A DNA stretch of 60,991 nucleotides from Paenacidovorax caeni (GCA_943370985.1 CALRTF020000001.1:1-60991); one strand, 5' to 3'; shown: positions 2,125 through 55,906, counted from the first letter of the stretch. Made by a program: numbers and translations. The notes: generated by a model not told the origin, from the sequence alone.

Positions 2125-3243
2125 ATGACCCCTTCCCCGTTCTCCGCGTTGCTGGCCTCCCGCCGCTTCATCGCTCCTCTTTTGATAGCTGCCTGCGCAG
2201 GCGGGGCGGGGGCTGCAGGCCAAAAAGAGTCCAAACCTCGAAAATCCGCGGCGCGCCCGGCCGTCACGCAGGAGCAGGCGACGCCCTATGCGGGTCGCAC
2301 GGACGCCATGGCCTTTGCCGACGACCTGGCCAGCCGGCGCGACCTCGACCCGCAATGGGTGCGCCAGACCCTGGGCCAGGCGCGGCATCTGCCGACCGTG
2401 GTGCGCCTGATGCAGCCGCCGGCCAGAACTTTTGTCAAGAACTGGCGTGTCTACCGCAGCCGCTTCATCGACCCGGTGCGTATCGCCGCCGGCGTGCGTT
2501 TCTGGCAGGACAACCAGGCCAGCCTGGCGCGCGCCGAAGCCGAGTACGGCGTCCCGGCGGAAATCATCGTCGGCATCATCGGTGTGGAAACCATTTACGG
2601 CCGTGACACCGGCAAGTTCCGGGTGCTGGACGCGCTGGCCACGCTGGCCTTCGACTTTCCGGCCTCGCATCCGCGCGCCCGCGAGCGCAGCGAATTTTTC
2701 AAGGGCGAGATCGAACAGTTCCTGACCCAACAAAGCCGGCTGGGCACTGACCCCTTGGCGCCGCTGGGCAGTTATGCCGGCGCCATGGGCATGCCGCAGT
2801 TCATGCCGTCGAGCCGCAACAAATACGCGGTGGACTTCGACGGCGACGGCCGCATCGACCTGTGGAACAGCCCGGCCGACGTGATCGGCTCGGTCGCCAA
2901 TTACTTCAAGGCCTTCAACTGGCAGCCCGGCATGCCCACCCACTATCCGGTCCGCTTCGACAGCAGCCGCCTCGACATGGACGCGCTGATGGCGCCCGAT
3001 ATCCTGCCGACCTTCAGCGTCGCGAGTTTCACCGCCAAAGGCGCGCTACTCGAGGGCCCGGCGCTGCAGCACACCGGCCCGCTGGCGCTGGTGGAGTTGC
3101 TCAACGGCGGCAGCGCGCCGGAATACGTGGCCGGCACGGAGAACTTCTACGCGATCACACGCTACAACTGGAGCAGTTATTACGCGATGTCGGTGATCGA
3201 GCTGGGGCGCGAAGTGGCGGCCAAGAGGACCAGCGGCAACTGA
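2125..3243 (+). CDS. mltB: Lytic murein transglycosylase B
   Basis: IIGVETIYG, GSYAGAMGMPQFMPSS, EF-hand-like DFDGDG and ITRYNWS motifs; ATG at 2125 followed by a signal-like peptide. Confidence 0.92.
   Translation: MTPSPFSALLASRRFIAPLLIAACAGGAGAAGQKESKPRKSAARPAVTQEQATPYAGRTDAMAFADDLASRRDLDPQWVRQTLGQARHLPTVVRLMQPPARTFVKNWRVYRSRFIDPVRIAAGVRFWQDNQASLARAEAEYGVPAEIIVGIIGVETIYGRDTGKFRVLDALATLAFDFPASHPRARERSEFFKGEIEQFLTQQSRLGTDPLAPLGSYAGAMGMPQFMPSSRNKYAVDFDGDGRIDLWNSPADVIGSVANYFKAFNWQPGMPTHYPVRFDSSRLDMDALMAPDILPTFSVASFTAKGALLEGPALQHTGPLALVELLNGGSAPEYVAGTENFYAITRYNWSSYYAMSVIELGREVAAKRTSGN
2173..2226 (+). repeat. 54-bp fixed-spacing motif, copy A (in the mltB signal-peptide region)
   Basis: GCT-CCTCTTTTG-ATAGCT-N21-GCTGCAGGCC-AAAAA. 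Confidence 0.8.
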
Positions 3244-3274
3244 GACCGGCAGTTGTGCCGTTGGCTCAAGCTGC

Positions 3275-3910
3275 CTAGTTCGACAGAGGGCGAACCGCCG
3301 TTGGCGACCTTCCCACCGAGAACGTCAGATCTGTCATGCAGCTGGTCCCCTGGAGAAAACTGATTCTCAGCTCGTCGTCTTCCCTGCGAAAAATGTATGA
3401 GGGGATGGGACGGCCATGCAAAAAAGGCCCTTGTCGAGGCAGGTTTTTCCAACCCAGTTTGCCAATGCCCTCAAGCGCGGGCTGCACCTCCACGCACAAG
3501 GGAACCACGTAGGGGGAAGGCGGATTCATCATGTCCCACCAGGTGAATCTGAAGAAAGTCCGTTGTGAGCCCACGTGCAAGCGAAGCGTGAAGTACCAGT
3601 CCTTACCGGCGATGGCATTGACGCCATACAACTTCGCCGTCATCTCGCCAGGGCTGTCGTAGTTCTTGAATTGCATGTCAAAAACTTCTTCGACGCGCTC
3701 CTTTGATAATTCCTCAGGCGGGATTTGCAAAACTTTGTGCAACCTTGTCCACATGTCCGCAGCGGTGAATGGATATGGCGGGGAGAACTGATGTGCGGCG
3801 GAAGGCTCCATAACCTTGTCGGCCAGGGTATCTGGAAGGGAATGAGCGCCAAGGTGATTCAGCTGCAATAAAAATGCAAGGCAGCAAGCTACTGCAGTAG
3901 CGCGATTCAT
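3275..3910 (-). CDS. Hypothetical exported protein (orphan, AT-richer than neighbours)
   Basis: ATG at 3910 after AAAGGGGG; hydrophobic N-terminus MNRATAVACCLAFLLQ; atypical codon usage. Confidence 0.65.
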   Translation of the reverse strand: MNRATAVACCLAFLLQLNHLGAHSLPDTLADKVMEPSAAHQFSPPYPFTAADMWTRLHKVLQIPPEELSKERVEEVFDMQFKNYDSPGEMTAKLYGVNAIAGKDWYFTLRLHVGSQRTFFRFTWWDMMNPPSPYVVPLCVEVQPALEGIGKLGWKNLPRQGPFLHGRPIPSYIFRREDDELRISFLQGTSCMTDLTFSVGRSPTAVRPLSN

Positions 3911-4046
3911 TGACTTGCCCCCTTTCAATCCCGGAAAAAGATCATCTTCGGATCGCGTTGGGACCATGACGTCGATCTGCCGTCGTTCATTCACTACCGC
4001 CAGACAGTGGTGCCCATGAAACGCATATTCTTCCCCATGGCCGCAT

Positions 4047-4865
4047 TTACACCGGCTGGATCGTAATGTCCACCGTCATGGTTTCTTCGCCGCCGCCCTG
4101 GCGCACACCCTTGATCGGCGGGCAGGCGTTGTAGTCGGTGCCCATGGCCAGGCGCACATGGCGCTCGTCGATCAGGCAGCTGTGTGTCACGTCGATGCTG
4201 ACCCAGCGCCGCGCCGCCACATCCAGGCAGACATCGACCCAGGCGTGGCTGGCGAGGTCCGGCTCGTTGGCGGCATAAAAATAGCCGCTGACATAACGCG
4301 CCGGAATGCCCAGGCTGCGGCAGATCGCCACCATCACATGGGCCTGGTCCTGGCACACGCCGGCGCCGGCTTCAAACGCCTGCAAGGCCGTGGTCGTCAC
4401 CGTCGTGCTATTTTTTTGATAGCTGACCACGCCCGCCACACCCCGGCTGAGGGCCAAAAGCATGTCCAGATCAGCCCGGCCCGCGACAGCCGGCGCCACA
4501 AAACCCCGGCCAAATTCCGCCAGCCGCTCGTGCGGCGCCGCCAGGTGCGTGGCGCGCAGGAAAAACGCCGGATGCGGCATGCTGGCCACATCGCTGAACT
4601 CGGCGATGCCAAAGGTCTCGACGTCGCCGGCTGCGTTGACCAGGCTCCAGCGCACGTTGTCCGCGACCTGGCCGACGAAGGTGTAGGAGCTGACCTTGTT
4701 GCCGAAGGCATCCGTCTGCTCGAACAGTTTTTCGGGCGCGCCCAGGCTCCAGAAGTGCACGGTCTGCGCCGGGCCGGACTGCGGCGTCAGCCACAGCGTC
4801 TGCAGCGCGTAACGCAGCGGCTCGGTGTAGCGGTAGTCGGTCACGTGCCGGACATGAAGTTTCAT
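4047..4865 (-). CDS. Transglutaminase-like protein (Bact_transglu_N plus core)
   Basis: HVTDYRY N-terminal domain; GVCQDQAH, ARYVSGY, SHAWVDV and WVSIDVT motifs. Confidence 0.92.
   Translation of the reverse strand: MKLHVRHVTDYRYTEPLRYALQTLWLTPQSGPAQTVHFWSLGAPEKLFEQTDAFGNKVSSYTFVGQVADNVRWSLVNAAGDVETFGIAEFSDVASMPHPAFFLRATHLAAPHERLAEFGRGFVAPAVAGRADLDMLLALSRGVAGVVSYQKNSTTVTTTALQAFEAGAGVCQDQAHVMVAICRSLGIPARYVSGYFYAANEPDLASHAWVDVCLDVAARRWVSIDVTHSCLIDERHVRLAMGTDYNACPPIKGVRQGGGEETMTVDITIQPV
4407..4460 (+). repeat. 54-bp motif, copy B (antisense inside the transglutaminase CDS)
   Basis: GCT-ATTTTTTTG-ATAGCT-N21-GCTGAGGGCC-AAAAG. Confidence 0.8.
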
Positions 4866-4905
4866 GGCCGGCACCCTGGGTTCTCAGCGGAAGCGATGAT
4901 GCATC

Positions 4906-5868
4906 TCAACTGGTGGCCGGCACCAGGAAATCGCGGCTGATGTAGGCGCCGAGTTCGTTGACGCGGTCGAGGAACTGCGTCAGGTAGGCGTGCAGGCCGG
5001 TGGCCAGGATTTCGTCGATGCGCGCGTACTGCAGGTCGGCCGACAACTTGCCGGCGCGGCGCACGGTTTCGCAGGTGGTGTCATCGGTCACCAGCTTGAG
5101 GTTGCTCACCACCTCCTGCAGACTGGCGGCCAGCGAACGCGGCATGTCGGTGCGCAGGATCAGCAGCTCGGCCACGCGTTCGGGCTTGATCACGTTGCGG
5201 TAGACGCGGCGGTAGATTTCGAAGGCGCTGACACTGCGCAGGATCGCGCTCCAGTGGTAGAAGTCGTACTCCTGGTCCTTCTCGCTGGCAGCGCCATAGA
5301 AGTCGCTCTGCACCGCGTGGAACTTCACGTCGACCAGGCGCGCCGTGTTGTCGGCGCGTTCGAGGAAAGTGCCCAGGCGCATGAAGTGCAAGGCCTCATC
5401 CTGCAGCATGGTGCCCACGGTCACGCCGCGCGACAGGTGCGAGCGGAACTTGACCCATTCAAAGAACTGGCCAGGGTCGCGCTCGAACTCGCCGTTGCGC
5501 AGCATGCGGAAGATTTCGAGGTAGGTCTGGTTCTGGGTTTCCCAGACCTCGGTGGTCAGCGTGCCGCGCACCGCGCGCGCGTTTTCACGGGCGTTTTTCA
5601 GGCAGGAAATGATGCTCGACGAGTTCTTCTCATCACGCACCATGAAGTCCATCACGTCGCGCGCATTGATCGCGCCGTATTTGCCTTCGTAGGCCGACGA
5701 CAGTTCGCTGATGCTCAGCAGGCCCTGCCAGCCGACTTGGGCCACGGCGGTCGATTGCGGCAGCAGCGAGGTCTGGTAGTTGACGTCCAGCATCCTCGCG
5801 GTATTCTCTGCCCGCTCCGTGTAGCGGGACATCCAGAAAAGGTGATCGGCGGTTCTTGACAGCATCAT
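4906..5868 (-). CDS. Alpha-E domain protein (DUF403)
   Basis: MLSRTADHLFWMSRYTERAENTAR and LGTFLERADNTAR (paired ER motifs); start overlaps the upstream stop (ATGATG). Confidence 0.92.
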   Translation of the reverse strand: MMLSRTADHLFWMSRYTERAENTARMLDVNYQTSLLPQSTAVAQVGWQGLLSISELSSAYEGKYGAINARDVMDFMVRDEKNSSSIISCLKNARENARAVRGTLTTEVWETQNQTYLEIFRMLRNGEFERDPGQFFEWVKFRSHLSRGVTVGTMLQDEALHFMRLGTFLERADNTARLVDVKFHAVQSDFYGAASEKDQEYDFYHWSAILRSVSAFEIYRRVYRNVIKPERVAELLILRTDMPRSLAASLQEVVSNLKLVTDDTTCETVRRAGKLSADLQYARIDEILATGLHAYLTQFLDRVNELGAYISRDFLVPATS

Positions 5869-7406
5869 TTCGCTCCCTGCGTCTGGCTTTGCGACTGGCT
5901 TTGTGATTGCCCCGACTGCGATTGCGTCTGCGACTGCGACTGCCCCGTCGCGTAGTTGTCGTCTTCCAGTACCCAGGTGTCCTTGGTGCCGCCGCCCTGC
6001 GAGGAGTTGACGACCAGCGAGCCGTCCTTGAGCGCCACGCGGGTCAGGCCGCCCGGCACCATCTGCACAGTTTTGCCGCTGAGCACAAAAGGCCGCAGGT
6101 CGATGTGGCGCGGCGCGATGCCGCTTTCGACATAGGTTGGGCAGGTTGACAGGCTCAGCGTCGGCTGGGCGATGTAGCCGGCCGGGTTGGCCATGACCGC
6201 CTTGCGGAAGTCCTCGATCTCGGCCTGCGTCGAGGCCGGGCCGACCAGCATGCCGTAACCGCCGGCGCCATGTACTTCCTTGACCACCAGGTCTTTCATG
6301 TTGGCCAGGGTGTAGGCCAGGTCGTCCGGGTTGCGGCACATATAGGTCGGCACGTTGTTCAGGATCGGCTTTTCACCGAGGTAGAACTCGATCATTTTCG
6401 GCACATAGGGGTAGATCGACTTGTCGTCGGCGACTCCGGTGCCGATGGCATTACACAGCGCGACATTGCCGCTGCGGTAAACGTTGAGCAGGCCGGCGCA
6501 ACCCAGCGTCGAGGTCGGGCGGAAGGCCAGCGGGTCGAGGAAATCGTCATCGACGCGGCGGTAGATCACATCGACACGTTTCGGTCCGCGCGTGGTGCGC
6601 ATGTAGACGAAGTTGTCCTTGACGAACAGGTCCTGGCCCTCGACCAGTTCCACACCCATCTGCTGCGCCAGGAAGGCGTGTTCGAAATAGGCCGAGTTGT
6701 ACATGCCGGGCGTCAGCACCACCACGGTCGGCTCGGCGCGGTGCGCGGGCGAGTTGTCGCGCAGGGTTTCGAGCAACAGGTCGGGATAGTGAGCCACCGG
6801 CGCCACGCGGTTCTCACTGAACAGGTCGGGAAACAGCCGCATCATCATCTTGCGGTCTTCCAGCATGTAGCTCACGCCGCTGGGCACGCGCAGGTTGTCC
6901 TCCAGCACGTAGTACTCGCCTTCGCCCTGGGCGTTGGGGGCGCGCACGATGTCGATGCCGCTGATGTGCGAATAGATGTTGCCGGGCACGTCCACGCCCA
7001 TCATCTCGGGCCGGAACTGCGCGTTCTGGAAAATCTGCTCGGCCGGGATCACGCCGGCCTTGATGATTTCCTGGTCGTGGTAGACGTCGTGGATGAAGCG
7101 GTTCAGGGCCGTGACGCGCTGGACCAGGCCGCGTTCCATGCTGTCCCACTCATGCGCGGGGATGATGCGCGGAATCAGGTCAAAGGGGATCAGCCGCTCG
7201 GTGCCGCCGGTCTCGGAATTGCCGTCGTCCTTGTCGCCGTACACGGCGAAGGTGATGCCGACGCGGCGAAAAATCATCTCGGCTTCCGCGCGCCTGGCCT
7301 GCATGACCGAATCCGGCTGGCGGCCCAGCCAGCGCTGGTAGCTCTGGTAATGCGCCCTCACCGACGCTTCGCCAGCGTTCATCTCATCAAACTTCGGTCC
7401 GCTCAT
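5865..7406 (-). CDS. Circularly permuted type 2 ATP-grasp protein (DUF404) with a QS-rich C-terminal tail
   Basis: VLEDNLRVPSGVSY, NSAYFEH, GGLTRVAL and VVNSSQGGGTKDTW motifs; GGAG at 7415-7418 favours ATG 7406 over 7436. Confidence 0.93.
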   Translation of the reverse strand: MSGPKFDEMNAGEASVRAHYQSYQRWLGRQPDSVMQARRAEAEMIFRRVGITFAVYGDKDDGNSETGGTERLIPFDLIPRIIPAHEWDSMERGLVQRVTALNRFIHDVYHDQEIIKAGVIPAEQIFQNAQFRPEMMGVDVPGNIYSHISGIDIVRAPNAQGEGEYYVLEDNLRVPSGVSYMLEDRKMMMRLFPDLFSENRVAPVAHYPDLLLETLRDNSPAHRAEPTVVVLTPGMYNSAYFEHAFLAQQMGVELVEGQDLFVKDNFVYMRTTRGPKRVDVIYRRVDDDFLDPLAFRPTSTLGCAGLLNVYRSGNVALCNAIGTGVADDKSIYPYVPKMIEFYLGEKPILNNVPTYMCRNPDDLAYTLANMKDLVVKEVHGAGGYGMLVGPASTQAEIEDFRKAVMANPAGYIAQPTLSLSTCPTYVESGIAPRHIDLRPFVLSGKTVQMVPGGLTRVALKDGSLVVNSSQGGGTKDTWVLEDDNYATGQSQSQTQSQSGQSQSQSQSQTQGAK

Positions 7407-7451
7407 CAGCTTATCTCCGTCAGGTTTCTTCTGCATTGCTGCCTGTAGCTT

Positions 7452-7467
7452 AGCAAGTAATGCGCCA
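7452..7467 (-). promoter_or_regulatory. Sigma-54 (-24/-12) promoter for the ATP-grasp/alpha-E/transglutaminase operon
   Basis: Minus strand TGGCGCATTACTTGCT is GG-N10-GC and close to TGGCAC-N5-TTGCW, about 45 bp before the start. Confidence 0.75.
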
Positions 7468-7499
7468 ATCGCCTGTAGGTGGCAAACCTTTTTGTGCGG

Positions 7500-10193
7500 T
7501 CAAGCGGGAGCCGGCCTGTGGTGCCAGTAGCGCAAGCCGGTCTGGCGCTGGCAACTCACGCTGTCCGGCTGCGCACTGGACCAGTTGGCTGCGCCGCAGG
7601 CCGGCGAGGTCCAGACCCGGATGCCGCGTTCGCGGTAACGCGCCAGCACCGGCGGCGCCGGGTGGCCGAAGCGGTTGCGGTATCCCGCCTGCGCCAGTGC
7701 CAGGCGGGGTTGCACGGCGTCGAGGAATGCCGGACTCGACGAGGTTTTGCTGCCGTGGTGCGGCACCAGCAGCAGGTCCGCCCGCAGGTCCAGCCCGGCC
7801 GCCACCAGCCGCTGCTCCTGCGCGAGTTCGATGTCGCCGGCCAGCAGGGCGGCGCGGCTGCCATGGGAGATGCGCAACACGCAGCTCATGGCATTCGGTT
7901 TCTGCGTCCTGGCGTAATCACCCGCCGGCGGGTGTAGCACCTCGAAATCGACACCGTCCCAATGCCAGCGCTGGCCGGCCACGCAGCGTTGCGAGGGGCG
8001 CAGGGCCTGCAGCGGATGGTTGGCCTCGATGGAGCTGATCAACACCGCCTGCGGCTGCATGGCCAGCACCGCCGGCGCGCCGCCGATATGGTCGCTGTCG
8101 CGGTGGCTCAGCATCAGCACGTCGACGCGCTCGCCGAAAGCGCGCAGCAGCGGCACCAGCACCCGGTGGCCCGCGTCACTCTCGCGCGAAAAACGCGGGC
8201 CGCTGTCATAGACCAGGGTGTGGCCCGCGGTGCGCACGACCAGCGCATTGCCCTGCCCCACATCGGCTGCGATCAGCTCGAAAGCCCCGGGCGCCGGCCG
8301 CAACGGTTGCCACAGCAGCACCGGCAGCATCAGCGGCACACCGAGCACACGCCAGTGCCAGGGCAGCCGCATGGCCAGCAGCAGGCCGCCGGCCACACCG
8401 GCCACCGCACACCACAGCGGCGCGGCCGCCACGCTGATGCTGGCCAGCGGCCAGCGTGCCAGCCATTGCAGAAACACCATCAGGCCGGCGACTGCCGCGC
8501 CTGCCAGGTCCCAGAGCGGCGCCCAGAACACACCCCCCATGGTCAGCGGCGTGACGACAAGCGTGACCCAGGGAATCGCCAGCCCGTTGGCCACCAGGCC
8601 CACCAGCGACACCTGGTTGAACAGCAGCAGGGACAAGGGCGCCAGCGCCAGGGTGACGAGCCATTGTTCGCGGGCGGCGCGGTACACCGCGCCTGCTGCC
8701 AGCCGCAGACCCTGCGGCAAGCGCCCTCCCCCAGCTCGAAACACAAAGCCTTTTTGGCCTCCAGCCCCCGTCATTCCGTCATCTTTAGCTCCTGATTCGA
8801 TAACATTCCGGTCGCCGCCGCCCGGACTGTCCCCCGCAGCAAACAGAACGCCCACAGCCACAAACGACAACCAGAAGCCGGCCTGCAGCAAGGCCCAGGG
8901 ATCGAGCGCGACCACCACCACCATGGCCAGCAGCCAGACCTGGGGCCAGGGCCAGCGCTTGCCGCTCTGCCGCAGCAGCACCACGGCCGCCAGCATCCAG
9001 ACCGTGCGTTGTGCCGGCACGCCCCAGCCCGAGAGCAGGGCATAGGCGGCCGCCAGCAGCAGGCCGCCCCAGGCGCCCGCGCGAGCGGCCGGCAGCGCCA
9101 GGCACAGGGCGGGCGTCCAGCGCGTGGAACGCCGCCAGATCCAGGCCACCGCCTGTGCCGCGAGCCAGGCGAACATGGTGATGTGCAGGCCCGAGATCGA
9201 CATCAGGTGCGCCACGCCGGTGGCGCGGAACACATCCCAGTCGGCGCGTTCGATGGCGTTCTGGTCGCCGACCAGCAGGGCCGCCACCACACCGGCGAGC
9301 TGCGCATCACTGACCCGTGCGTAAACCGCATCGCGCAGCGCCTGTCGCGCGCGCTCGACCGGATGGCGCCAGCTGTCGGTGAGCAGCCGGGGAACCGGAT
9401 CGCGCAGCCCCGTACGTACGTAGCCCGTGGCTTGCAGGCCCTGTTCCCAGAGCCAGAGTTCGTAGTCAAAGCCATGCGGGTTGCTGTTGCCGTGCGGCGC
9501 CTTCAGGCGCACCGTCATCTGCCAGCGTTCGCCGGCGCGCAGGGTCGGCGGCTGGCGCTGCAGGGCCAGGGTGGCGGCGGGGCCCAGGCCAGCATCCGGG
9601 TTGTCGGGCCCGCCCACGTCCGCCGGTTCCCGGGAACCAAACCCGGCGTACCAGCCGAGGTAAATCCGTGACGGCAGGTGCACAGGCGCGCCGTCGAGCC
9701 GGGCCGATTCGACGGCAAAACGAAAACGCAGGCCGTCGTCGTTGCGCTGCGGCATGGCCAGCACCCGGCCGGTGACCTCGATGTCGCGGCCTTCCAGCGC
9801 CGGCGCCAAGGCACCGGCCTGAAAGATCGAGGCGCGCAGCCCGGTCAGCGCGAAGCCGAGTCCCAGCGCCAGCACCCCCGCAGCAGCCGCACGCAGGGCC
9901 CACGCGCCCGGCGGCATTCGGACCCCCAGCAGCGCAGCGCCCAGGCAAGCAGCGAGCCAGGCGGCATACACACCCGGCGGCTGCAACACCGCCTGCTGCA
10001 ATTGCAGGGCCGCGCCCGCGACAAACCCGCAAAAAACCGGAGCCGACACCCGGCCCGGTGATGTGGCTGATGACACGGGTCGCACAGACCTCCCTGTTCG
10101 CGTGTTTTCCTGTGTGCTGCGGCGACACCCTTCAACGGCCGGTCTCGCGCATCCGCTGACAACCCGCCCTGTCAGCCCCTTGCTGACAGACAT
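7500..10193 (-). CDS. comEC: DNA internalization competence protein ComEC/Rec2
   Basis: NPHGFDYE (OB domain), HLMSISGLH (competence domain), DVGQG, SHRDSDHIGG and PHHGS (metallo-beta-lactamase domain); true start may be downstream, near 10049. Confidence 0.93.
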   Translation of the reverse strand: MSVSKGLTGRVVSGCARPAVEGCRRSTQENTRTGRSVRPVSSATSPGRVSAPVFCGFVAGAALQLQQAVLQPPGVYAAWLAACLGAALLGVRMPPGAWALRAAAAGVLALGLGFALTGLRASIFQAGALAPALEGRDIEVTGRVLAMPQRNDDGLRFRFAVESARLDGAPVHLPSRIYLGWYAGFGSREPADVGGPDNPDAGLGPAATLALQRQPPTLRAGERWQMTVRLKAPHGNSNPHGFDYELWLWEQGLQATGYVRTGLRDPVPRLLTDSWRHPVERARQALRDAVYARVSDAQLAGVVAALLVGDQNAIERADWDVFRATGVAHLMSISGLHITMFAWLAAQAVAWIWRRSTRWTPALCLALPAARAGAWGGLLLAAAYALLSGWGVPAQRTVWMLAAVVLLRQSGKRWPWPQVWLLAMVVVVALDPWALLQAGFWLSFVAVGVLFAAGDSPGGGDRNVIESGAKDDGMTGAGGQKGFVFRAGGGRLPQGLRLAAGAVYRAAREQWLVTLALAPLSLLLFNQVSLVGLVANGLAIPWVTLVVTPLTMGGVFWAPLWDLAGAAVAGLMVFLQWLARWPLASISVAAAPLWCAVAGVAGGLLLAMRLPWHWRVLGVPLMLPVLLWQPLRPAPGAFELIAADVGQGNALVVRTAGHTLVYDSGPRFSRESDAGHRVLVPLLRAFGERVDVLMLSHRDSDHIGGAPAVLAMQPQAVLISSIEANHPLQALRPSQRCVAGQRWHWDGVDFEVLHPPAGDYARTQKPNAMSCVLRISHGSRAALLAGDIELAQEQRLVAAGLDLRADLLLVPHHGSKTSSSPAFLDAVQPRLALAQAGYRNRFGHPAPPVLARYRERGIRVWTSPACGAANWSSAQPDSVSCQRQTGLRYWHHRPAPA
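8751..8804 (-). repeat. 54-bp motif, copy C (in frame in a comEC loop)
   Basis: Minus strand GTT-ATCGAATCA-GGAGCT-N21-GCTGGAGGCC-AAAAA. Confidence 0.75.
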
Positions 10194-10202
10194 TCAGGCC
10201 TT

Positions 10203-10218
10203 TGGCGCAGCTCTTGCT
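10203..10218 (+). promoter_or_regulatory. Sigma-54 (-24/-12) promoter for the transglutaminase-DUF2126 arm
   Basis: TGGCGCAGCTCTTGCT is GG-N10-GC, about 110 bp upstream of TTG 10328. Confidence 0.72.
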
Positions 10219-10327
10219 TATATTGGCGGCATTAAAACCGTGGAATACGGCCCGGGACGCGGCCATGACGCCGTTTCTGCGGCATAGTTGCCACAACGCA
10301 CCGATATTTCTGAAAAGCGAGACCGAC

Positions 10328-13300
10328 TTGTCCATCCACGTTGCCCTGAGCCACATCACCCACTACAAATACGACCGGCTGGTCCGCCTCGGCCCCCAGG
10401 TCGTCCGCCTGCGCCCTGCCCCGCACAGCCGTACCAAGGTCCTGTCCTATTCGCTGAAGGTCGAGCCCCAGGGCCATTTCATCAACTGGCAGCAGGACCC
10501 GTTTGCCAACTACCAGGCCCGGCTGGTGTTTCCCGAGCCGACCCGCGAGTTCAAGGTCACGGTGGACCTGGTCGTCGAGATGGCGGTGTTCAACCCCTTC
10601 GACTTTTTTCTCGAACCGGAAGCCGAGGAGTTCCCTTTCAAGTACAGCAAGGAGCAGGCGCGCGAACTCGCGCCCTACCTCGCCACCGAGCCGGTCACGC
10701 CGCTGCTCAAGGCCTACCTCGACAGCGTGGACCGCACGCCCAAACGCACCATCGACTTCCTGGTCGGCCTGAACCAGAAGCTGCAGGGCGACATCAAGTA
10801 CGCGATCCGCATGGAGCCCGGCGTGCAGACGCCCGAGGAGACCCTGAAGCTGGCCATCGGCTCCTGCCGCGACACCGGCTGGCTCATGGTCCAGCTGTTC
10901 CGCCACCTGGGCCTGGCCGCGCGTTTTGTCTCGGGTTACCTGATCCAGCTCAAGGCCGATGTCAAGTCGCTGGACGGCCCCAGCGGCGCCGAGAGCGATT
11001 TCACCGATCTGCACGCCTGGTGCGAGGTTTTCCTGCCCGGCGCCGGCTGGGTCGGGCTGGACCCGACGTCCGGGCTGATGGCCGGCGAAGGCCACATTCC
11101 GCTGGCCTGCACGCCCGAGCCCTCGAGCGCCGCGCCGATCGAGGGCGGCGTCGATAAAAGCGAAGTCGATTTTGCCCACCACATGGGGGTGCAACGCATC
11201 TACGAATCGCCGCGCGTGACCCAGCCCTACACCGACGCCCTCTGGGCCGATGTGCTCAAGCTCGGCCACCAGGTGGACCAGGACCTGCTCGCCGGTGATG
11301 TGCGCCTGACCATGGGCGGCGAGCCGACCTTTGTCGCCACCCAGGACCGCGACGCCGCCGAGTGGAACATCGACGCACTGGGCCCGACCAAACGCGGTTA
11401 CGCGACCGAGCTGGTGCAGAAGCTTCGCGCCGAATACGGCGAAGGCGGCTTCCTGCACTTCGGCCAGGGCAAGTGGTACCCGGGCGAACAGCTGCCGCGC
11501 TGGGCGCTGAGCATTTTCTGGCGCAAGGACGGCCAGCCGGTCTGGAAAAACCCGGCGCTGTTCACCGACGAACGTCAGCCCTGCAACTACACCAGCGCCG
11601 ACGCCAAACGTTTCGCCGACATGCTGGCCGGCAAGCTCGGCCTGTCGACGAAACACATCACGCCGGGTTATGAAGACACCTGGTACTACCTCTGGCGCGA
11701 ACGCCGCCTGCCGGTCAATGTGGACCCCTTCGACACCAAACTCGACGACGCGATGGAACGCGCCCGCCTGCGCCGCGTGTTCTCGCAGGGGCTGGACGCG
11801 GTGGTCGGTTATGTGCTGCCGCTCAAGGTCAGGGAAGAAAAGGCCCAGGGACAAGGCCCGCAATGGTCCACCGGCCCCTGGTTCTTCCGCGACGAACGCA
11901 TGTACCTGATGCCGGGCGACTCGCCCATGGGTTACCGCCTGCCGCTGGACTCGGTGCCCTGGGTGTCCAAGACCGACTATCCCTACATGACCGAGGCCGA
12001 TCCGTTTGCGCCGCGCGAGGAATTGCCGCCCGCCGATGTTTTTGCCGAGCGTTACAACGCGGCCCGCAGCCAGCCTGTTCCTGCAGCGCCTGCGCCGGCC
12101 GCGCCGGCCGGCACCCGGCACAACAGCGCCAGCATGCTGGCCCAGTACATGGCACGCTACATGACGGGCAGCGGCTCGCGCAACGAAGCGAATCGCCTGA
12201 TGCAGTTCCGGACCACCACCTCCAGCGTGGATGTGCGTTTCGACCAGGGCCCCAAAACCGGCGTCGCTCCCGCCGCCGCGACGCCCGCGCCGGCGCCGGC
12301 TGATGCCTCGGCGCGTATGCCCAAACCCGGCGAGTCCGCCGCCTGGCTGACCCGCACCGCGCTGTGTGTGGAGGTGCGCGACCCGAACCGCGCCAACGGC
12401 CCCCAGGACAAACCCAGGGCCGCGCCCAAAGAAAAAGGCGCAAAGGCCGAGACCGGCGCACTCTACATCTTCATGCCGCCGCTGGAGCGCCTCGAAGACT
12501 ACCTGGACCTGCTGGCCGCGGTCGAGGCCAGCGCGCAGGCGCTGGGCCTGCAGATCGTGCTCGAAGGCTACCCGCCGCCGCGCGATCCGCGCCTGAAGAT
12601 GCTGCAGGTCACGCCCGATCCCGGCGTCATCGAGGTCAACATCCATCCGGCCTACAACTGGAACGAACTGGTCGAACACACCGAGTTCCTCTACAAAATT
12701 GCGCATGAAACGCGCCTGTCGGCCGAGAAGTTCATGACCGACGGCCGCCACACCGGCACCGGCGGCGGCAATCACTTTGTGCTCGGCGGCGCCACGCCGC
12801 CGGACAGCCCGTTTTTGCGCAAGCCGGAAATGCTGGGCAGCCTGATCGCCTACTGGCACAACCACCCGTCGCTGAGCTATTTGTTCTCGGGCATGTTCAT
12901 CGGCCCGACCAGCCAGGCGCCGCGCGTCGACGAGGCGCGCAACGACCAGTTGTACGAGCTCGAAATCGCGCTGCGCGAAATCGCCGTCAACCGCGAAAAA
13001 TACGGCCAGGACATGCCGCCCTGGATCGTGGACCGCACCCTGCGCAACATCCTGGTCGACGTGACCGGCAACACGCACCGCAGCGAGTTCTGCATCGACA
13101 AGATGTACTCGCCCGACTCGGCCACCGGCCGGCTCGGCCTGCTGGAGTTGCGCGCGTTTGAAATGCCGCCGCATGCGCGCATGAGCATCGTGCAGCAGTT
13201 GCTGCTGCGCGCGCTGGTCGCGCGTTTCTGGAACAAGCCTTACCACGGCCGCATGACGCGCTGGGGCACCGAGCTGCACGACCGTTTCCTGCTGCCCGGT

Positions 13301-13930
13301 TTTGTGCGCATGGATTTCGCCGACGTGCTGACCGAACTCAAGGAAGCCGGCTACCCCTTCGAGATGGCCTGGTTCGAGCCGCATTTCGAGTTCCGCTTCC
13401 CGATGATCGGCCAGGTCAAAGCCAGCAGCATCGAGCTGACCCTGCGCAGCGCGCTGGAGCCCTGGCATGTGATGGGCGAGGAAGGTTCGTCCGGCGGCAC
13501 GGTGCGTTATGTGGACTCTTCGCTGGAACGTGTTGAAGTGCATGTGACCGGCCTCAACGACAACCGTTATGTGATCACCGCCAACGGCCGCGCGCTGCCG
13601 CTGCAGAGCACAGGGACGGTCGGTGAATACGTGGCCGGCGTGCGTTACAAGGCCTGGAACCCGCCTTCGGCCCTGCACCCGTCGATCGGCGTGCACGCGC
13701 CGCTGACCTTCGACATCGTCGACACCTGGATGGAACGTTCGCTGGGCGGCTGCCAGTACCACGTGGCGCATCCGGGCGGCCTCAGTTACGACACGCTGCC
13801 GGTCAATTCCTATGAGGCCGAAAGCCGGCGCCTGAACCGCTTTTTCCAGATGGGCCACACGCCGGGCAGGATGCAGGTCAAGCCGGCGCAGCCGAGCCGC
13901 GAGTTCCCGTTCACGCTGGATCTGCGCTAG
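10328..13930 (+). CDS. Transglutaminase plus DUF2126 putative amidoligase fusion
   Basis: GSCRD, DLHAWCEV and GLDPT triad motifs, then LTMGGEPTF, VTPDPGVIEVN, GTGGGNH and GNTHRSEFCIDK; MSIHVAL start at TTG 10328. Confidence 0.92.
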   Translation: MSIHVALSHITHYKYDRLVRLGPQVVRLRPAPHSRTKVLSYSLKVEPQGHFINWQQDPFANYQARLVFPEPTREFKVTVDLVVEMAVFNPFDFFLEPEAEEFPFKYSKEQARELAPYLATEPVTPLLKAYLDSVDRTPKRTIDFLVGLNQKLQGDIKYAIRMEPGVQTPEETLKLAIGSCRDTGWLMVQLFRHLGLAARFVSGYLIQLKADVKSLDGPSGAESDFTDLHAWCEVFLPGAGWVGLDPTSGLMAGEGHIPLACTPEPSSAAPIEGGVDKSEVDFAHHMGVQRIYESPRVTQPYTDALWADVLKLGHQVDQDLLAGDVRLTMGGEPTFVATQDRDAAEWNIDALGPTKRGYATELVQKLRAEYGEGGFLHFGQGKWYPGEQLPRWALSIFWRKDGQPVWKNPALFTDERQPCNYTSADAKRFADMLAGKLGLSTKHITPGYEDTWYYLWRERRLPVNVDPFDTKLDDAMERARLRRVFSQGLDAVVGYVLPLKVREEKAQGQGPQWSTGPWFFRDERMYLMPGDSPMGYRLPLDSVPWVSKTDYPYMTEADPFAPREELPPADVFAERYNAARSQPVPAAPAPAAPAGTRHNSASMLAQYMARYMTGSGSRNEANRLMQFRTTTSSVDVRFDQGPKTGVAPAAATPAPAPADASARMPKPGESAAWLTRTALCVEVRDPNRANGPQDKPRAAPKEKGAKAETGALYIFMPPLERLEDYLDLLAAVEASAQALGLQIVLEGYPPPRDPRLKMLQVTPDPGVIEVNIHPAYNWNELVEHTEFLYKIAHETRLSAEKFMTDGRHTGTGGGNHFVLGGATPPDSPFLRKPEMLGSLIAYWHNHPSLSYLFSGMFIGPTSQAPRVDEARNDQLYELEIALREIAVNREKYGQDMPPWIVDRTLRNILVDVTGNTHRSEFCIDKMYSPDSATGRLGLLELRAFEMPPHARMSIVQQLLLRALVARFWNKPYHGRMTRWGTELHDRFLLPGFVRMDFADVLTELKEAGYPFEMAWFEPHFEFRFPMIGQVKASSIELTLRSALEPWHVMGEEGSSGGTVRYVDSSLERVEVHVTGLNDNRYVITANGRALPLQSTGTVGEYVAGVRYKAWNPPSALHPSIGVHAPLTFDIVDTWMERSLGGCQYHVAHPGGLSYDTLPVNSYEAESRRLNRFFQMGHTPGRMQVKPAQPSREFPFTLDLR

Positions 13931-14901: not shown

Positions 14902-15154
14902 GGTGTTTCCTTGTCTACCCGCGGTGATGCTATAGATGAAGGGCTCACCTGTCCTGTGAGAAAGTGCCGGCCCGTGACGAGCGCCGCTGCGAGCCTGCGT
15001 CGCCGACTGACGCTGATCCTCGCCCAAGAAGTGAGCCTTTTGTCTTATAGCCGCAACAACCGGTCGTCCTGGGCCGTGTTTGATTGCCCGAACAGACGGC
15101 CATAACCGTCCACGCCGCTTGGGGCGGCAGGCATGAAGGCATACTTGGACCAGC

Positions 15155-17926: not shown

Positions 17927-17974
17927 GACGGCCTGCGCAAGCGCCCTGCCCCGCTTTTTTTTGCCCTGACGCCC

Positions 17975-18940: not shown

Positions 18941-18994
18941 GCTCCTGTTTTTATAGCTGCCTGGGCCCGCCAGCCGGGAGCTGGAGACCTTTTT
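18941..18994 (+). repeat. 54-bp motif, copy D (intergenic)
   Basis: GCT-CCTGTTTTT-ATAGCT-N21-GCTGGAGACC-TTTTT. Confidence 0.8.
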
Positions 18995-19020
18995 CATCAT
19001 CAACCCGCAGCCATTTGCCG

Positions 19021-19590: not shown

Positions 19591-19743
19591 CAGCGTTCTC
19601 AGGGCGGGGCGAAATTCCCCACCGGCGGTGTTTGCGTGAAAACGCATCAGCCCGCGAGCGCCCGGCTTCTTTCTGGAAGCCGGGGTCAGCAGATTCGGTT
19701 CAACTCCGAAGCCGACGGTCACAGTCCGGATGAAAGAGAGCGC
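19591..19743 (+). ncRNA. FMN riboswitch (RFN element)
   Basis: TCAGGGCGGGGCGAAATTCCCCACCGGCGGT, AGCCCGCGAGCG, GTCAGCAGAT and GCCGACGGTCACAGTCCGGATGAAAGAG blocks upstream of lumazine synthase. Confidence 0.95.
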
Positions 19744-19830
19744 GAGGTCCATGGCTGCGCCGTGGGCCGGTGCCTGCGCGCCGGCCTGGCGTGGCCACCG
19801 GCTCGTGCGCCCTGATTTCCGGTCACCCGT

Positions 19831-24781: not shown

Positions 24782-25230
24782 TGAACCGCAGACTGCTTCT
24801 CCAGGCCGGCCTGGCCGGCGCCGCCGCCTTGTCCGCTCCGTTTTTGATAGCTAGCCACGCTCAGGGGACGGGGGCTGGAGGCCAAAAACGCCACAAAATT
24901 GTGATCCAGATCAGCGACAACGACCCGGCCAAGTGGAATTTGGCGCTCAACAACGCCAAAAACCTGCAGGACGACGTGGGGGCCACCAATGTGGACATCG
25001 CCATCGTCGCCTACGGGCCCGGCATCGGCATGCTCAAGCTCGAGTCGCCGACCGGCTCGCGTGTTGCGGAGGCCATGAAAGCCAATGTGCGCGTGGTGGC
25101 CTGCGAAAACACCATGCGCGGCCAGAAGCTGGGCAAGGACGACATGTTGCCCGCGATCGCCTATGTGCCGGCCGGCGTGACGGAAATCATGAAAAAGCAG
25201 CAGGACGGCTGGGCCTACCTCCGGCCCTGA
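24778..25230 (+). CDS. DsrE-family protein with a twin-arginine signal peptide
   Basis: NRRLLL signal; VAYGPG, ACENT and GWAYLRP motifs; ATGA overlap with the gabD stop. Confidence 0.85.
   Translation: MMNRRLLLQAGLAGAAALSAPFLIASHAQGTGAGGQKRHKIVIQISDNDPAKWNLALNNAKNLQDDVGATNVDIAIVAYGPGIGMLKLESPTGSRVAEAMKANVRVVACENTMRGQKLGKDDMLPAIAYVPAGVTEIMKKQQDGWAYLRP
24835..24888 (+). repeat. 54-bp motif, copy E (in the DsrE signal-peptide region)
   Basis: GCT-CCGTTTTTG-ATAGCT-N21-GCTGGAGGCC-AAAAA. Confidence 0.82.
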
Positions 25231-25279: not shown

Positions 25280-25353
25280 GCGGGTGTAGTTCAATGGCAG
25301 AACGGCAGCTTCCCAAGCTTCATACGAGGGTTCGATTCCCTTCACCCGCTCCA
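25280..25353 (+). tRNA. tRNA-Gly (anticodon CCC)
   Basis: 74 nt; GCGGGTG/CACCCGC acceptor stem, TTCCCAA anticodon loop, GGTTCGATTCC T-arm, encoded CCA. Confidence 0.96.
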
Positions 25354-31659: not shown

Positions 31660-31660
31660 C

Positions 31661-45579: not shown

Positions 45580-45742
45580 CTAGGTTTCCCCGCAAAATAT
45601 TCAAAGTCAATTAAAGATATTTATTCGATAGCTTTTTTAAATATCCATGGTCGAGCCCTTTTGGCGGCTCATCCGGGGGCGCGGGCCATGCCGTAGTAGG
45701 CTTGCGCACAGACATTGACAAAAACTACTGAAAGAGACGCTG

Positions 45743-46354
45743 ATGAATCCCTCCGCCACACCAACTGCCACACCCCGCTATCCCGCGCCCGAGCTGAAAG
45801 ACCTGCCGGAAGACATCCGGGCCAAAATTCTTGAAGTGCAGGAAAAAGCCGGCTTTGTGCCGAATGTGTTCCTCGCGCTGGCACGGCGTCCGGCCGAGTG
45901 GCGGGCCTTTTTTGCTTACCACGACGCCCTGATGCTGCGGGAAGAATCGGGCCTCACCAAGGGTGATCGCGAGATGATTGTCACCACCACCAGCGCCGCC
46001 AACCAGTGCCTGTACTGCGTGGTGGCGCACGGCGCCTTGCTGCGGATTTACGAGAAGAAGCCGCTGGTGGCCGATCAGGTGGCGGTGAACTACCGCAAGG
46101 CCGACATCACGCCGCGCCAGCGCGCCATGCTGGATTTTGCGATGAAGGTGTGCGAGCGTTCGCACGAGGTGGAAGAGGCCGACTTTGCCGCACTGCAGGC
46201 GCACGGCTTTAGCGACGAGGACATCTGGGACATCGCGGCCATCACCGCGTTTTTCGGCCTGTCCAACCGCATCGCCAGCTTCTCGAACATGATGCCCAAT
46301 CCCGAGTTCTACCTGATGGGCCGCGTACCCAAGCCCAAGCCGGCCGCCGGATAG
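45743..46354 (+). CDS. Peroxidase-related enzyme (AhpD/CMD-like)
   Basis: GFVPNVF and NQCLYCVVAHG (CxxC-H) motifs. Confidence 0.9.
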   Translation: MNPSATPTATPRYPAPELKDLPEDIRAKILEVQEKAGFVPNVFLALARRPAEWRAFFAYHDALMLREESGLTKGDREMIVTTTSAANQCLYCVVAHGALLRIYEKKPLVADQVAVNYRKADITPRQRAMLDFAMKVCERSHEVEEADFAALQAHGFSDEDIWDIAAITAFFGLSNRIASFSNMMPNPEFYLMGRVPKPKPAAG

Positions 46355-46371
46355 CTTTGTTTTTGATAGCT
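46354..46371 (+). repeat. 54-bp motif, copy G (left half only)
   Basis: GCT-TTGTTTTTG-ATAGCT; the distal GCTG block and A/T tract are absent. Confidence 0.6.
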
Positions 46372-54772: not shown

Positions 54773-54854
54773 GCAGTGCGCCCGCCTGCGGGGTGAAAAT
54801 CAGAAGTTGTATGACAACTTTCAGACCCTTCCCTTTTTATCCGAGGAGACATCC

Positions 54855-55841
54855 ATGACATTTTTCAAACCTGCGCTTTCCAGGCTGGCCCTGGGCATGA
54901 CGCTGGCGCTCGGCCTCGTCGCCGGCGCCGCCGCCCAGACCACCATGAAGATCAGCATCTCGACGGCGCAGAATTCGCACCAGGGCGTCGCCATCGACAC
55001 CTTCGCGCGGGAAGTTGAAAAACGCACCGGCGGCCGCTACAAGGTCCAGACCTTTTACAACGGCGCACTTGGTGGCGAACGCGAGTCCATCGAAGCGGTG
55101 CAGCTGGGCACGCAGGAGCTGGCCTTCTCGTCGACTGGCCCGGTGCCCAACTTCGTGCCGGAAACCAAGATCCTCGACGTGCCCTTCCTGTTCCGTGACA
55201 AGGCCCACGCCCGCGCGGTGCTGGACGGCCCCATCGGCCAGGATCTGCTGACCAAGTTCGACAGCAAGGGGTTCAAGGCCCTGGCCTGGGCCGAAAACGG
55301 TTTCCGCCACATGACCAACAGCAAGCGTGACGTCAAGGGACCGGAAGACCTCAAGGGCCTGAAGATGCGCACCATGGAAAACCCCGTGCACATCGCCGCC
55401 TACAAGGGCTTCGGCATCGTGACCACACCCATGGCCTTCCCGGAAGTGTTCACCGCGCTGCAGCAGGGCACGGTCGACGGCCAGGAAAATCCGCTGTCGG
55501 TGATCATCTCCGCCAAGTTCGACCAGGTGCAGAAACACCTGACGCTGACCGGCCACGTTTATTCGCCGTGCATCTTCGTCATGAACAAGGCCTCCTTCGA
55601 CAAGCTGTCGGCGGCTGACAAGCAGGCCTTCCTCGACGCCGCGAAAGAAGGCACCAAGGCCAACCGCGCCCGTGTCGACGAGGACGATGCCAAGGGTGTG
55701 GCCGACCTGCGCGCCAAGGGCATGACCGTGATCGACAACGTCGACAAGGCCAGGTTTGTGGCTGCGCTGGCACCGGTGAACGCCGAGTTCGAGAAGCAGT
55801 TCGGCAAACCCAACATCGACAAGATCCGCGCCGTCAAATAA
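54855..55841 (+). CDS. dctP: TRAP transporter substrate-binding protein
   Basis: Signal peptide; ENGFRH, GLKMRT and ALQQGTVDGQENP motifs. Confidence 0.93.
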   Translation: MTFFKPALSRLALGMTLALGLVAGAAAQTTMKISISTAQNSHQGVAIDTFAREVEKRTGGRYKVQTFYNGALGGERESIEAVQLGTQELAFSSTGPVPNFVPETKILDVPFLFRDKAHARAVLDGPIGQDLLTKFDSKGFKALAWAENGFRHMTNSKRDVKGPEDLKGLKMRTMENPVHIAAYKGFGIVTTPMAFPEVFTALQQGTVDGQENPLSVIISAKFDQVQKHLTLTGHVYSPCIFVMNKASFDKLSAADKQAFLDAAKEGTKANRARVDEDDAKGVADLRAKGMTVIDNVDKARFVAALAPVNAEFEKQFGKPNIDKIRAVK

Positions 55842-55852
55842 GCACTTCGTTC

Positions 55853-55906
55853 GCTATACTTTCAGTAGCTGGACACGCCCGCAGCCATTCGGCTGGCGGG
55901 CGTTTT
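55853..55906 (+). repeat. 54-bp motif, copy H (dctP-dctQ spacer)
   Basis: GCT-ATACTTTCA-GTAGCT-N21-GCTGGCGGGC-GTTTT. Confidence 0.75.

What the first reader, a model, noticed from the sequence alone, without database searches (positions are those of the whole stretch)
2173..55906. Dispersed 54-bp DNA motif with invariant geometry but variable spacers
Seen: seven full copies (2173, 4407, 8804 on minus, 18941, 24835, 42636, 55853) and one half copy (46354) of G(C/T)T-N9-RKAGCT-N21-GCTG-N6-A/T tract. Both spacer lengths are exact in all seven although spacer sequences differ widely. The left block is an interrupted palindrome (ideal GCTAT-N7-ATAGC) with T-N11-A kept in all eight. Four copies lie inside CDSs, and seven of eight are on the + strand. 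Inference: spacing conserved without sequence identity looks like a protein-binding or recombination site under selection, not a recently copied MITE. At about one per 8 kb it would number in the hundreds genome-wide, suggesting a chromosome-scale system (nucleoid organiser, LysR-like tetramer footprint or replichore-polarised signal). I cannot name a described element with this structure.
Basis: partly seen in the sequence, partly recalled or inferred. Interest (0 to 1): 0.88.

Follow-up and report, generated by a model that had tools for sequence, protein, structure and literature searches.

The report
Genome-wide landmark for a repurposed regulator
A fixed-geometry DNA motif (64-base core, weaker tail to about 100 bases) occurs about 570 times in this Polaromonas-like genome, often written over the codons of core genes, and its left palindrome also sits in the promoter of one small conserved DNA-binding protein, so it is likely an undescribed chromosome-wide protein landing site and not a jumping repeat.

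Summary
The motif is real: 7 full copies and a half copy as stated; 574 in the genome, 0 in two controls. It has a 17-bp palindrome (L), a lineage-specific middle part (R) at fixed distance, and a one-sided A/T tail with ~10-bp period. There is no hairpin covariation and no strong replichore bias. Sites are more even than chance, kept at orthologous places, often written over codons, and nearly absent from three large plasmids. This scan found the motif before on other Comamonadaceae DNA, and Tong 2017 listed fragments without a function. Added here: (1) a candidate reader. A single-copy HxlR-type winged-helix gene has L in its own promoter in 58 of 60 orthologs, including 9 of 11 motif-poor genomes. 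It is found in 79 of 80 motif-rich but 4 of 140 motif-free family genomes, and distant paralogs carry tandem L boxes. (2) Tail-to-tail pairs are spaced in ~10-bp steps. (3) Phage genes carry copies. I favour a DNA-bending chromosome landmark (0.45) over drive by biased DNA transfer (0.3).

The parts
2173..2236 (+). full copy, 64-bp core (L 2173-2189); intergenic between a TgpA-like gene and an SLT transglycosylase gene
   Evidence: 59.5 bits; kept at the orthologous place and orientation in G141
4407..4470 (+). full copy inside a transglutaminase-like gene (4047-4844, minus strand), antisense to it
   Evidence: 43.0 bits; Pfam; kept in G141, net length -1 residue
8741..8804 (-). full copy inside comEC, sense, in a variable loop
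   Evidence: 38.1 bits; same site in 27 of 29 related comEC loci
18941..19004 (+). full copy, intergenic, 36 bases after a stop codon
   Evidence: 52.6 bits; kept in G141
24835..24898 (+). full copy between an aldehyde dehydrogenase gene and a DsrE-like gene
   Evidence: 53.6 bits
42636..42699 (+). full copy between convergent genes (DUF1993, CMD family)
   Evidence: 37.2 bits
55853..55916 (+). full copy between dctP and dctQ
   Evidence: 34.8 bits; kept in G141
46354..46370 (+). L palindrome alone (the half copy), starting on the last base of the stop codon of a CMD-family gene; no R arm
   Evidence: L 16.5 bits, best R arm -35.8 bits
45616..45632 (.).
   Evidence: L 16.7 bits, no R arm

Best explanation
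The motif is a host-kept double-stranded DNA site whose left palindrome (L) is likely bound by a dimer of a small HxlR-type winged-helix protein, and whose middle part and 10-bp-phased A/T tail would be gripped and bent by a second, unidentified partner, so that about 570 evenly spread complexes would shape chromosome structure or supercoiling, mostly at gene ends. Shown: the anatomy, the distribution, the L box in the gene's promoter and the co-occurrence. Inferred: that HxlR binds L (about 0.8), that L began as its autoregulatory operator and was recruited genome-wide, that a partner wraps the tail, and the structural role. Sites would build up base by base wherever sequence allows, also over codons, and decay in lineages that lose the system.
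For: No Watson-Crick covariation in either dyad among 574 copies, so it is read as duplex. L-to-R distance fixed: 518 at offset 0, 3 at the twelve other offsets. L box 76-137 bases upstream of the HxlR ortholog in 58 of 60 loci, 9 of 11 in genomes with <=8 strict L boxes, and in 80 of 80 named orthologs against 229 of 3605 own genes and 0 and 8 of 1980 windows in two motif-poor genomes. It lies just upstream of a conserved -10-like hexamer (read by eye). Paralogs at 34-46% identity have tandem L boxes 31-33 bases apart in 6 of 6 loci of two cassette types, and a variant box in 4 of 4 loci of a third. Gene found in 79 of 80 family genomes with >=50 L boxes but 4 of 140 with none; within the genus 91 of 94 against 1 of 14. 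Its putative recognition helix is nearly invariant across genera, as L is, while R changes by lineage. Pfam HxlR 29.3 bits, cut-off 20.8; model pLDDT 89.6, nearest solved folds YodB and other HxlR-family proteins. Self-pairing scores 0.77, best control 0.01, contacts agree >=75%, pLDDT >=82; the mark was reached by 20 of 30 solved pairs and 1 of 23 single chains; the confident interface is the two-chain one, and solved family dimers exist, so this may be likeness. A/T tail peaks near 52, 62, 73, 82, 92, 103, period ~10. Tail-to-tail pairs spaced in ~10-bp steps. Sites avoid each other below 1 kb. They occupy 128 of 279 convergent, 208 of 1397 tandem and 28 of 484 divergent gaps.
Against: No binding or function was measured. 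The gene is not sufficient: 34 of 205 family genomes with <=11 L boxes keep it. Co-occurrence across kin overstates, and the losses in the genus may be few clades. No reader of R or the tail was found; the MarR neighbour is not conserved. The four-copy model names confident contacts only within one pair of chains. Copies are not enriched after genes with the strongest codon bias (6.7% against 10-13%), which a supercoil-relief role would lead one to expect. The preference for gene ends may be plain avoidance of promoters. Many lineages lost the system. A small gain per site is a weak reason to change amino acids; transfer drive explains that more easily.
Confidence: 0.45

Rival explanations
1. 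Molecular drive by biased DNA transfer: DNA that carries the site (or the site with its bound protein) is taken up, packaged, protected or recombined more often, so sites build up in shared core DNA as uptake sequences do in Neisseria and Haemophilus. HxlR may still read L.
For: Shares the genomic marks given for uptake sequences in passages of PMC2817400: both orientations, even spacing, frame bias in genes (75 of 98 antisense and 50 of 72 sense copies in one frame), origin without length change, dialects, scarcity in low-GC contigs (3 in 186 kb below 60% GC) and in three plasmids (0, 0, 2 L boxes in 971 kb). Present in phage genes, absent from one lytic phage.
Against: The candidate L reader looks like a cytoplasmic regulator, not a pilin. 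comEC is found in 127 of 130 genus genomes (G046 left out), motif-free ones included. The site is far longer than the 9-10-base uptake cores. A search for uptake preference in this family found nothing relevant among 8 listed papers.
Confidence: 0.3
2. Domesticated repeat: an old REP/MITE-like element spread the copies by insertion, and they were later kept because they carry an HxlR operator.
For: Some in-gene copies sit in length-gaining loops: trmJ-like about +14, rlmJ-like about +28 residues against solved homologs, +20 in a metH-like gene against G126, and the comEC loop. Strong preference for gene ends. One own-only site goes with a 69-base longer gap.
Against: All 574 copies differ, mean identity 58%, nearest neighbour 78% against 74% after column shuffling. 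No hairpin covariation. Six of eight genes tested against outgroups show no gain. Paired arms are not more alike in L (0.69 against 0.70) and the spacer is not symmetric. The one Y1 transposase gene has no flanking copy.
Confidence: 0.12
3. Self-marker for a defence system: bound sites protect host DNA, and phages mimic them.
For: 86 of 121 viral loci from a pattern scan hold a full copy (>=20 bits, 77 distinct), none with a host-like flanking gene at >=60% identity; copies lie in or beside terminase, primase and methylase genes.
Against: Large resident plasmids nearly lack it; a 42.8-kb host contig has none; lytic phage P26218 has none; phage density is low, 77 strict matches in 40 contigs that were picked for having one.
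Confidence: 0.08
4. An ordinary, very large regulon of an HxlR repressor.
For: L overlaps the regulator's own promoter, and L-only boxes stand before a few genes such as rpsA.
Against: Sites avoid divergent promoters (28 of 484) and favour convergent gene ends (128 of 279); 170 of 574 lie inside genes; orientation is independent of transcription (78 sense, 77 antisense in tandem gaps).
Confidence: 0.05

Closest known systems
Unexplained spaced motifs of Polaromonas naphthalenivorans CJ2 and Acidovorax ebreus TPSY (Tong et al. 2017, PMC5217627; section 13 and rows of supplement 2 seen)
   Same: Fragments of this motif: L-box pairs, and a TAGCT/ATTTG pair at distance 32 that fits positions 14-18 and 51-55 exactly. 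Also mostly intergenic and often between convergent genes.
   Different: In the parts I read they are separate pentamer pairs with no whole anatomy, no tail, no reader and no function.
DNA uptake sequences DUS/USS (passages of PMC2817400 and bioRxiv 10.1101/2025.10.24.684340)
   Same: Hundreds of copies, both orientations, even spacing, frame bias, origin in place, dialects, scarce in foreign DNA.
   Different: 64-100 bases with a palindromic head against 9-10-base non-palindromic cores; candidate reader is a winged-helix regulator, not the pilin ComP or ComN; inverted pairs are ~170-bp phased pairs, not hairpin terminators.
HxlR/DUF24 regulators and their operators (HypR, PMC3351151 passages; YodB, QsrR, HxlR structures)
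   Same: Fold and Pfam family; AT-centred palindromic operator (HypR box 7-2-7, also in its own promoter); paralogs sit beside CMD-family genes with tandem operators.
   Different: The own protein has no cysteine, so no thiol switch; L is odd-centred (5-7-5); hundreds of sites with a fixed extension, mostly away from promoters.
Sequence-specific chromosome organisers SlmA-SBS, MatP-matS, Noc-NBS (recalled, no call)
   Same: A regulator-like dimer bound at many dispersed palindromes for a structural role.
   Different: Those sites are short, number tens and are confined to or excluded from the terminus; this one numbers hundreds, looks uniform and overwrites codons.
E. coli gyrase motif and BIME-2 strong sites (PMC6379681 passages)
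   Same: Long site with a helically periodic A/T flank; found downstream of genes.
   Different: Gyrase motif is symmetric, degenerate, 10.75-bp period, centred between bases; here the tail is one-sided, ~10.0 bp, both dyads centre on a base, and L is nearly invariant.
REP/REPIN/MITE repeats and the Betaproteobacterial repeat BRE (PMC3733652 passages; PMC3110155 passages and supplement 1 parts 2 and 4)
   Same: Dispersed, mostly at gene ends, sometimes in genes; BRE-like inserts even share the comEC loop in relatives.
   Different: No covarying stem, no young near-identical family, no flanking transposase; BRE has another sequence.

Membership tests
DUS/USS uptake sequences | strong over-representation, both orientations, more even than random | tested here: met
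   574 vs 0; 284/290; chi-square 259 vs 351+-28, 0 of 1000 simulations as low
DUS/USS uptake sequences | arise in place in coding DNA, with frame bias | tested here: met
   6 of 8 genes show no length gain against outgroups; frame bias; 2 of 8 do gain length
DUS/USS uptake sequences | short (9-10 base) non-palindromic core | tested here: not met
   64-base core with palindromic head and a tail to ~100
DUS/USS uptake sequences | read by a surface pilin (ComP, ComN) | tested here: inconclusive
   candidate L reader is an HxlR-type regulator; reader of R unknown; no pilin was tested for co-occurrence; comEC does not discriminate
DUS/USS uptake sequences | preferential uptake of site-bearing DNA | not testable with these tools
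   needs a transformation assay
REP/REPIN/MITE | stem-loop with compensatory changes | tested here: not met
   observed pairing equals or is below expectation at nearly all dyad pairs, largest excess 0.04
REP/REPIN/MITE | families of near-identical recent copies | tested here: not met
   574 distinct, mean 58%, nearest neighbour median 78% vs 74% shuffled, maximum 94%
REP/REPIN/MITE | cognate Y1/RAYT transposase flanked by copies | tested here: not met
   one PF01797 gene; nearest copy 3.8 kb away; genome is 88% complete
REP/REPIN/MITE | target-site duplication, empty/filled site pairs | tested here: inconclusive
   1 of 16 own intergenic sites missing in G141 with a 69-base shorter gap; duplications not looked for
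BRE (PMC3110155) | ~90-base BRE consensus | tested here: not met
   List S1 sequences compared by eye: no L box, other sequence
Replichore-polarised signals (KOPS, Chi; recalled) | strong leading-strand bias | tested here: not met
   46 of 100 listed sites leading in G079; 255 of 573 by contig skew
matS / SBS / NBS (recalled) | confined to or excluded from the terminus domain | tested here: inconclusive
   G079: 12-18 strict sites per 0.5 Mb over the first 3 Mb, largest gap 162 kb; the 1.1 Mb that holds the expected terminus has 35 unlisted sites, the same density, but their places were not seen
Gyrase motif | symmetric flanks of 10.75-bp period around a between-base dyad | tested here: not met
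   one-sided tail, best period 9.9-10.0 over positions 48-100 (10.4 for A/T in in-gene copies), dyads centred on bases 9 and 32
HxlR/DUF24 regulator-operator | HxlR winged-helix dimer | tested here: met
   Pfam over cut-off, fold, predicted self-pair 0.77 vs control 0.01
HxlR/DUF24 regulator-operator | palindromic operator at its own promoter | tested here: met
   58 of 60 and 80 of 80 ortholog loci, overlapping sets; by sequence only
HxlR/DUF24 regulator-operator | conserved N-terminal redox cysteine | tested here: not met
   own protein has no Cys; some other genera have one near residue 18
HxlR/DUF24 regulator-operator | binding shown in vitro or in vivo | not testable with these tools
   needs EMSA or ChIP
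LysR tetramer site | T-N11-A box read by a LysR protein | not tested
   T3 and A15 are 98% kept, but no LysR candidate was tested; R is not T-N11-A

The most novel reading that the evidence does not exclude
A redox-regulator family member lost its sensor cysteine and, with a lineage-specific partner, became a sequence-positioned chromatin particle: hundreds of ~100-bp wrapped sites, pairing face to face in whole helical turns, that are selected or driven strongly enough to rewrite protein sequences, give each lineage its own DNA dialect, and mark phage genes and integron cassettes that passed through the family.
Probability: 0.35. Interest if true: 0.93.

Novelty: categorically new. Interest (0 to 1): 0.84.

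Why it matters
It would be a family-wide DNA-level system, found at 12 or more strict L boxes in 96 of 301 sampled family genomes, that covers about 1% of the chromosome and alters core proteins. A 108-residue candidate reader makes it directly testable by EMSA, ChIP-seq and one deletion. If structural, it is a new way to position nucleoprotein particles on a bacterial chromosome and a clear case of a regulator's operator turned into a genome-wide landmark. If it is transfer drive, it is a third self-DNA preference system, read from inside the cell. Either way the motif is a provenance tag: a common class 1 integron cassette on an enterobacterial plasmid carries a full copy.

Tried and rejected
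Rfam on the window: FMN and two glycine riboswitch aptamers and a tRNA, none on a copy. Hairpin or RNA role rejected: no covariation, no sense preference. Fold-back origin of the pairs rejected. BRE identity rejected. comEC as a marker of motif presence failed. MarR neighbour as second reader: present in only 10 of 60 ortholog loci, in motif-poor and motif-rich genomes alike. A fixed attachment or packaging place in phages was not seen. BLAST of single copies against annotated phages gave only chance hits; a phage terminase search found no named Comamonadaceae phage among the 25 rows shown. Solved-structure searches for the murI-like and hscA-like genes returned nothing at my cut-offs; hscA was then tested against two other-family genomes. 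The single-sequence PDB and NCBIfam searches with the HxlR protein found nothing. The four-copy model gave no named dimer-dimer interface; this says nothing against a higher complex on DNA. The idea that paired tails simply continue in phase did not hold by hand arithmetic: at a 10.0-bp period the common gaps put the two tails about half a turn apart; unexplained. Residual L boxes in five motif-poor genomes were no more numerous than the reversed control (7-14 vs 6-13) and gave no clear regulon beyond the gene's own promoter and an rpsA promoter box.
Full report
Observation. In the 4.1-Mb, 365-contig genome the strict pattern matches 282 times at spacers 9/21 and 0-9 times at the other second spacers; two other first spacers gave 34 and 36, unresolved. 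An iterated matrix finds 574 copies at >=16 bits, 284 + and 290 -, and none at >=5 bits in two controls. The nearest named orthologs of a core protein are from Polaromonas. Gene positions come from my own simple gene caller (3926 genes), which misses low-GC genes.

Anatomy. Positions 1-17 form palindrome L (GCTAY-N7-RTAGC, A/T tract in the centre, dyad on base 9). Positions 23-41 form a weaker dyad R centred on base 32. A/T tracts follow at 51-54 and 62-63. Beyond the core, A/T content keeps oscillating with peaks near 73, 82, 92 and 103; over positions 66-110 the amplitude exceeded all 200 shuffles in 556 unpaired own copies and in 70 copies from G141, and upstream it was weak or absent (p 0.03-0.67). 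An R arm of >=8 bits follows a strong L at offset 0 in 518 cases and at the twelve other offsets in 3. Dyad partners do not covary; in the centre of L pairing is below expectation, as for an A-tract. All copies differ, mean identity 58%. It behaves as a duplex protein site, not a hairpin or a young repeat.

Placement. Of 574 copies, 170 lie inside genes, 265 between genes, 124 overlap gene ends and 15 are at contig edges. Occupancy is 128 of 279 convergent, 208 of 1397 tandem and 28 of 484 divergent gaps of >=40 bases. Contigs under 60% GC hold 3 copies in 186 kb. Sites are more even than a null that keeps their class: 25 gaps of 250-1000 bases against 48+-6, 0 of 1000 simulations. There is no strong replichore bias: 46 of the 100 listed strict sites (135 in all) in complete genome G079 are on the leading strand; contig skew gives 255 of 573, p=0.01, a slight lagging tilt. 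Copies are not enriched after the most codon-biased genes.

Inverted pairs. Six own pairs stand tail to tail with gaps of 31, 39, 41, 41, 41 and 41 bases and unrelated spacers. A variable-gap search of 131 genus genomes gave 72 loci in 32 genomes with lengths 134-140 (14), 144-149 (49) and 153-159 (9), none at 141-143 or 150-152. These were not collapsed for orthology, at least two are one site by eye, and three of the 30 fetched loci were not confirmed by the matrix. G109 alone has 15 loci, five at 134-137 and ten at 145-147 (0 of 100000 uniform draws as periodic). The arms are no more alike in L than arms of other pairs and the spacer is not symmetric. I infer that two complexes interact only at whole-turn steps.

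History of sites. In 400 kb of motif-rich G141 (median 88% protein identity), 15 of 16 own intergenic sites are kept, all in the same orientation, and 13 of 14 in-gene sites. The comEC copy is at the same place in 27 of 29 relatives with free turnover of variable bases; it lies in a loop that also takes BRE-like inserts. Against motif-poor G113 and G126, 10 of 19 in-gene sites show no length change and 15 of 19 are within 3 residues. Other motif-poor genomes hold relics at places orthologous to own copies (found by searching for L, so biased to L), so such genomes probably lost the motif and are weak outgroups. Against solved homologs or other families, six of eight genes show no gain (purK 0, gcvP +1, Nif3 -1, hscB -2 to -4, mutS -1 in four of five genomes and -5 in one, hscA -1) and two gain about 14 and 28 residues. 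Both routes occur; building in place over helices cannot be simple insertion.

Range. Sixteen genomes of other families in the order are at control level. In the family, 96 of 301 genomes have >=12 strict L boxes, about 50 of 150 genera by hand count. In the genus, 94 of 130 have >=50, 8 have 12-49 and 28 have <=11 (G046 left out). L is the same across genera; R differs, and in G261 and G481 both halves change symmetrically, whereas G334 shows no clear dyad (7-24 sites per genome). Three plasmids of 257-360 kb from named Comamonadaceae have 0, 0 and 2 L boxes; I did not count their chromosomes, but the supplement of PMC5217627 lists fitting motif pairs for two of the hosts. Lytic Rhodoferax phage P26218 has none.

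Candidate reader. Two motif-poor genomes of another genus show tandem L boxes 31 bases apart before a CMD-family gene and a weaker one before the adjacent HxlR gene. The own genome's best match is one 108-residue HxlR-type gene before grpE-dnaK-dnaJ, with a motif copy in its promoter and another after it. An L box of >=14 bits lies 76-137 bases upstream in 58 of 60 orthologs; the two without are the most diverged in the genus and come from genomes with 1-2 L boxes. It is there in 9 of 11 genomes with <=8 L boxes, where 200-base windows rarely hold one (0 and 8 of 1980 in two such genomes). Family genomes with the gene: 4 of 140 (no L), 8 of 37 (1-2), 22 of 28 (3-11), 15 of 16 (12-49), 79 of 80 (>=50). 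Genus: 1 of 14, 2 of 3, 10 of 11, 8 of 8, 91 of 94. Of the five motif-rich misses, G199 has the gene broken at two homopolymer runs, G100 has it cut by a contig end, and in three fragmented assemblies (G087, G139, G212) it was not found. Kin are not independent, so these counts overstate. Paralogs carry their own L-type boxes. Fold and predicted dimer match the HxlR/YodB/QsrR family. HypR of that family binds an AT-centred palindrome that also lies at its own gene (passages of PMC3351151). The own protein has no cysteine. The gene looks necessary, not sufficient, and its invariant helix cannot explain the R dialects, so a second reader is inferred and was not found.

Mechanism. Shown: anatomy, distribution, conservation, operator position, co-occurrence. 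Inferred: HxlR binds L (about 0.8); a partner contacts R and bends the tail; the complexes serve chromosome structure or topology (0.45). The main rival is drive by biased transfer (0.3), which fits the writing over codons better but sits badly with a cytoplasmic reader. Domesticated repeat 0.12, defence self-marker 0.08, plain regulon 0.05.

Print and earlier notes. Seen: PMC5217627 (passages, section 13, supplement rows), PMC3110155 (abstract, passages, supplement 1 parts 2 and 4), and passages of PMC2817400, bioRxiv 10.1101/2025.10.24.684340, PMC3351151, PMC6379681 and PMC3733652 (the last has none of five family, order or genus names in its main text, supplements not searched; bioRxiv supplements are closed). 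Searches showed no paper describing the whole motif or its reader; the library lacks most subscription papers. SlmA, MatP, Noc, KOPS and Chi are recalled. Six earlier scan notes describe this motif in other genomes; three word look-ups found none naming a reader, though only short summaries are visible.

Verdict. Real, old, host-kept, not a member of any tested family; fragments in print, whole system undescribed as far as I could search; now testable through one small protein. Interest 0.84.

Noticed in passing
L245:552-842 (pCTX-M3, NC_004464.2): The DUF1010 cassette gene between dfrA12 and aadA2 carries a full 55-bit copy of the motif; 1792 plasmid records matched a window copy at a loose cut-off, the 40 rows shown all at this kind of match. 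It points to an origin of this cassette in the motif-bearing family (inference).
   Followed up: partly
window 45616-45632: A lone L-like box in the divergent promoter of a katG-like peroxidase gene and a CMD-family gene; HxlR paralogs elsewhere sit beside CMD genes, so it may be a true operator (an OxyR site is another possibility, recalled).
   Followed up: partly
window 25416-39594: A type IV/MSHA-like pilus cluster (secretin, T2SSE, T2SSF, prepilin motifs) of 14 kb has no copy of the motif.
   Followed up: no
window 7500-10193; L008, L010, L014, L021, L023, L029, L030: The comEC loop that holds the motif also takes in-frame BRE-like inserts in several relatives, so two unrelated repeats use one tolerant loop.
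   Followed up: partly
G175:C1:7831-7893; G169:C1:32853-32915: Two phage contigs have one L box with an R-like arm on each side; no such two-sided site was found in the host genome.
   Followed up: no
G000:C128:9717 and L420: An L-only box before rpsA has the same sequence in four of five motif-poor genomes and in the own genome; candidate ordinary target of the HxlR protein. Only the G137 locus was checked for gene context.
   Followed up: partly
L034, L037: Two viral-collection loci matched the pattern inside an apparent short direct repeat and score below zero on the matrix; unrelated to the motif, not examined.
   Followed up: no
window 19591-19745, 25280-25350, 58799-59026: FMN riboswitch before a lumazine synthase gene, a tRNA, and tandem glycine riboswitch aptamers before gcvT-gcvH; ordinary.
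   Followed up: no
window 4047-18904: Two transglutaminase / alpha-E / circularly permuted ATP-grasp gene sets flank comEC.
   Followed up: no
G000:C202:5956-6654: A single Y1 (RAYT-like) transposase gene before gltB with no motif copy beside it.
   Followed up: partly
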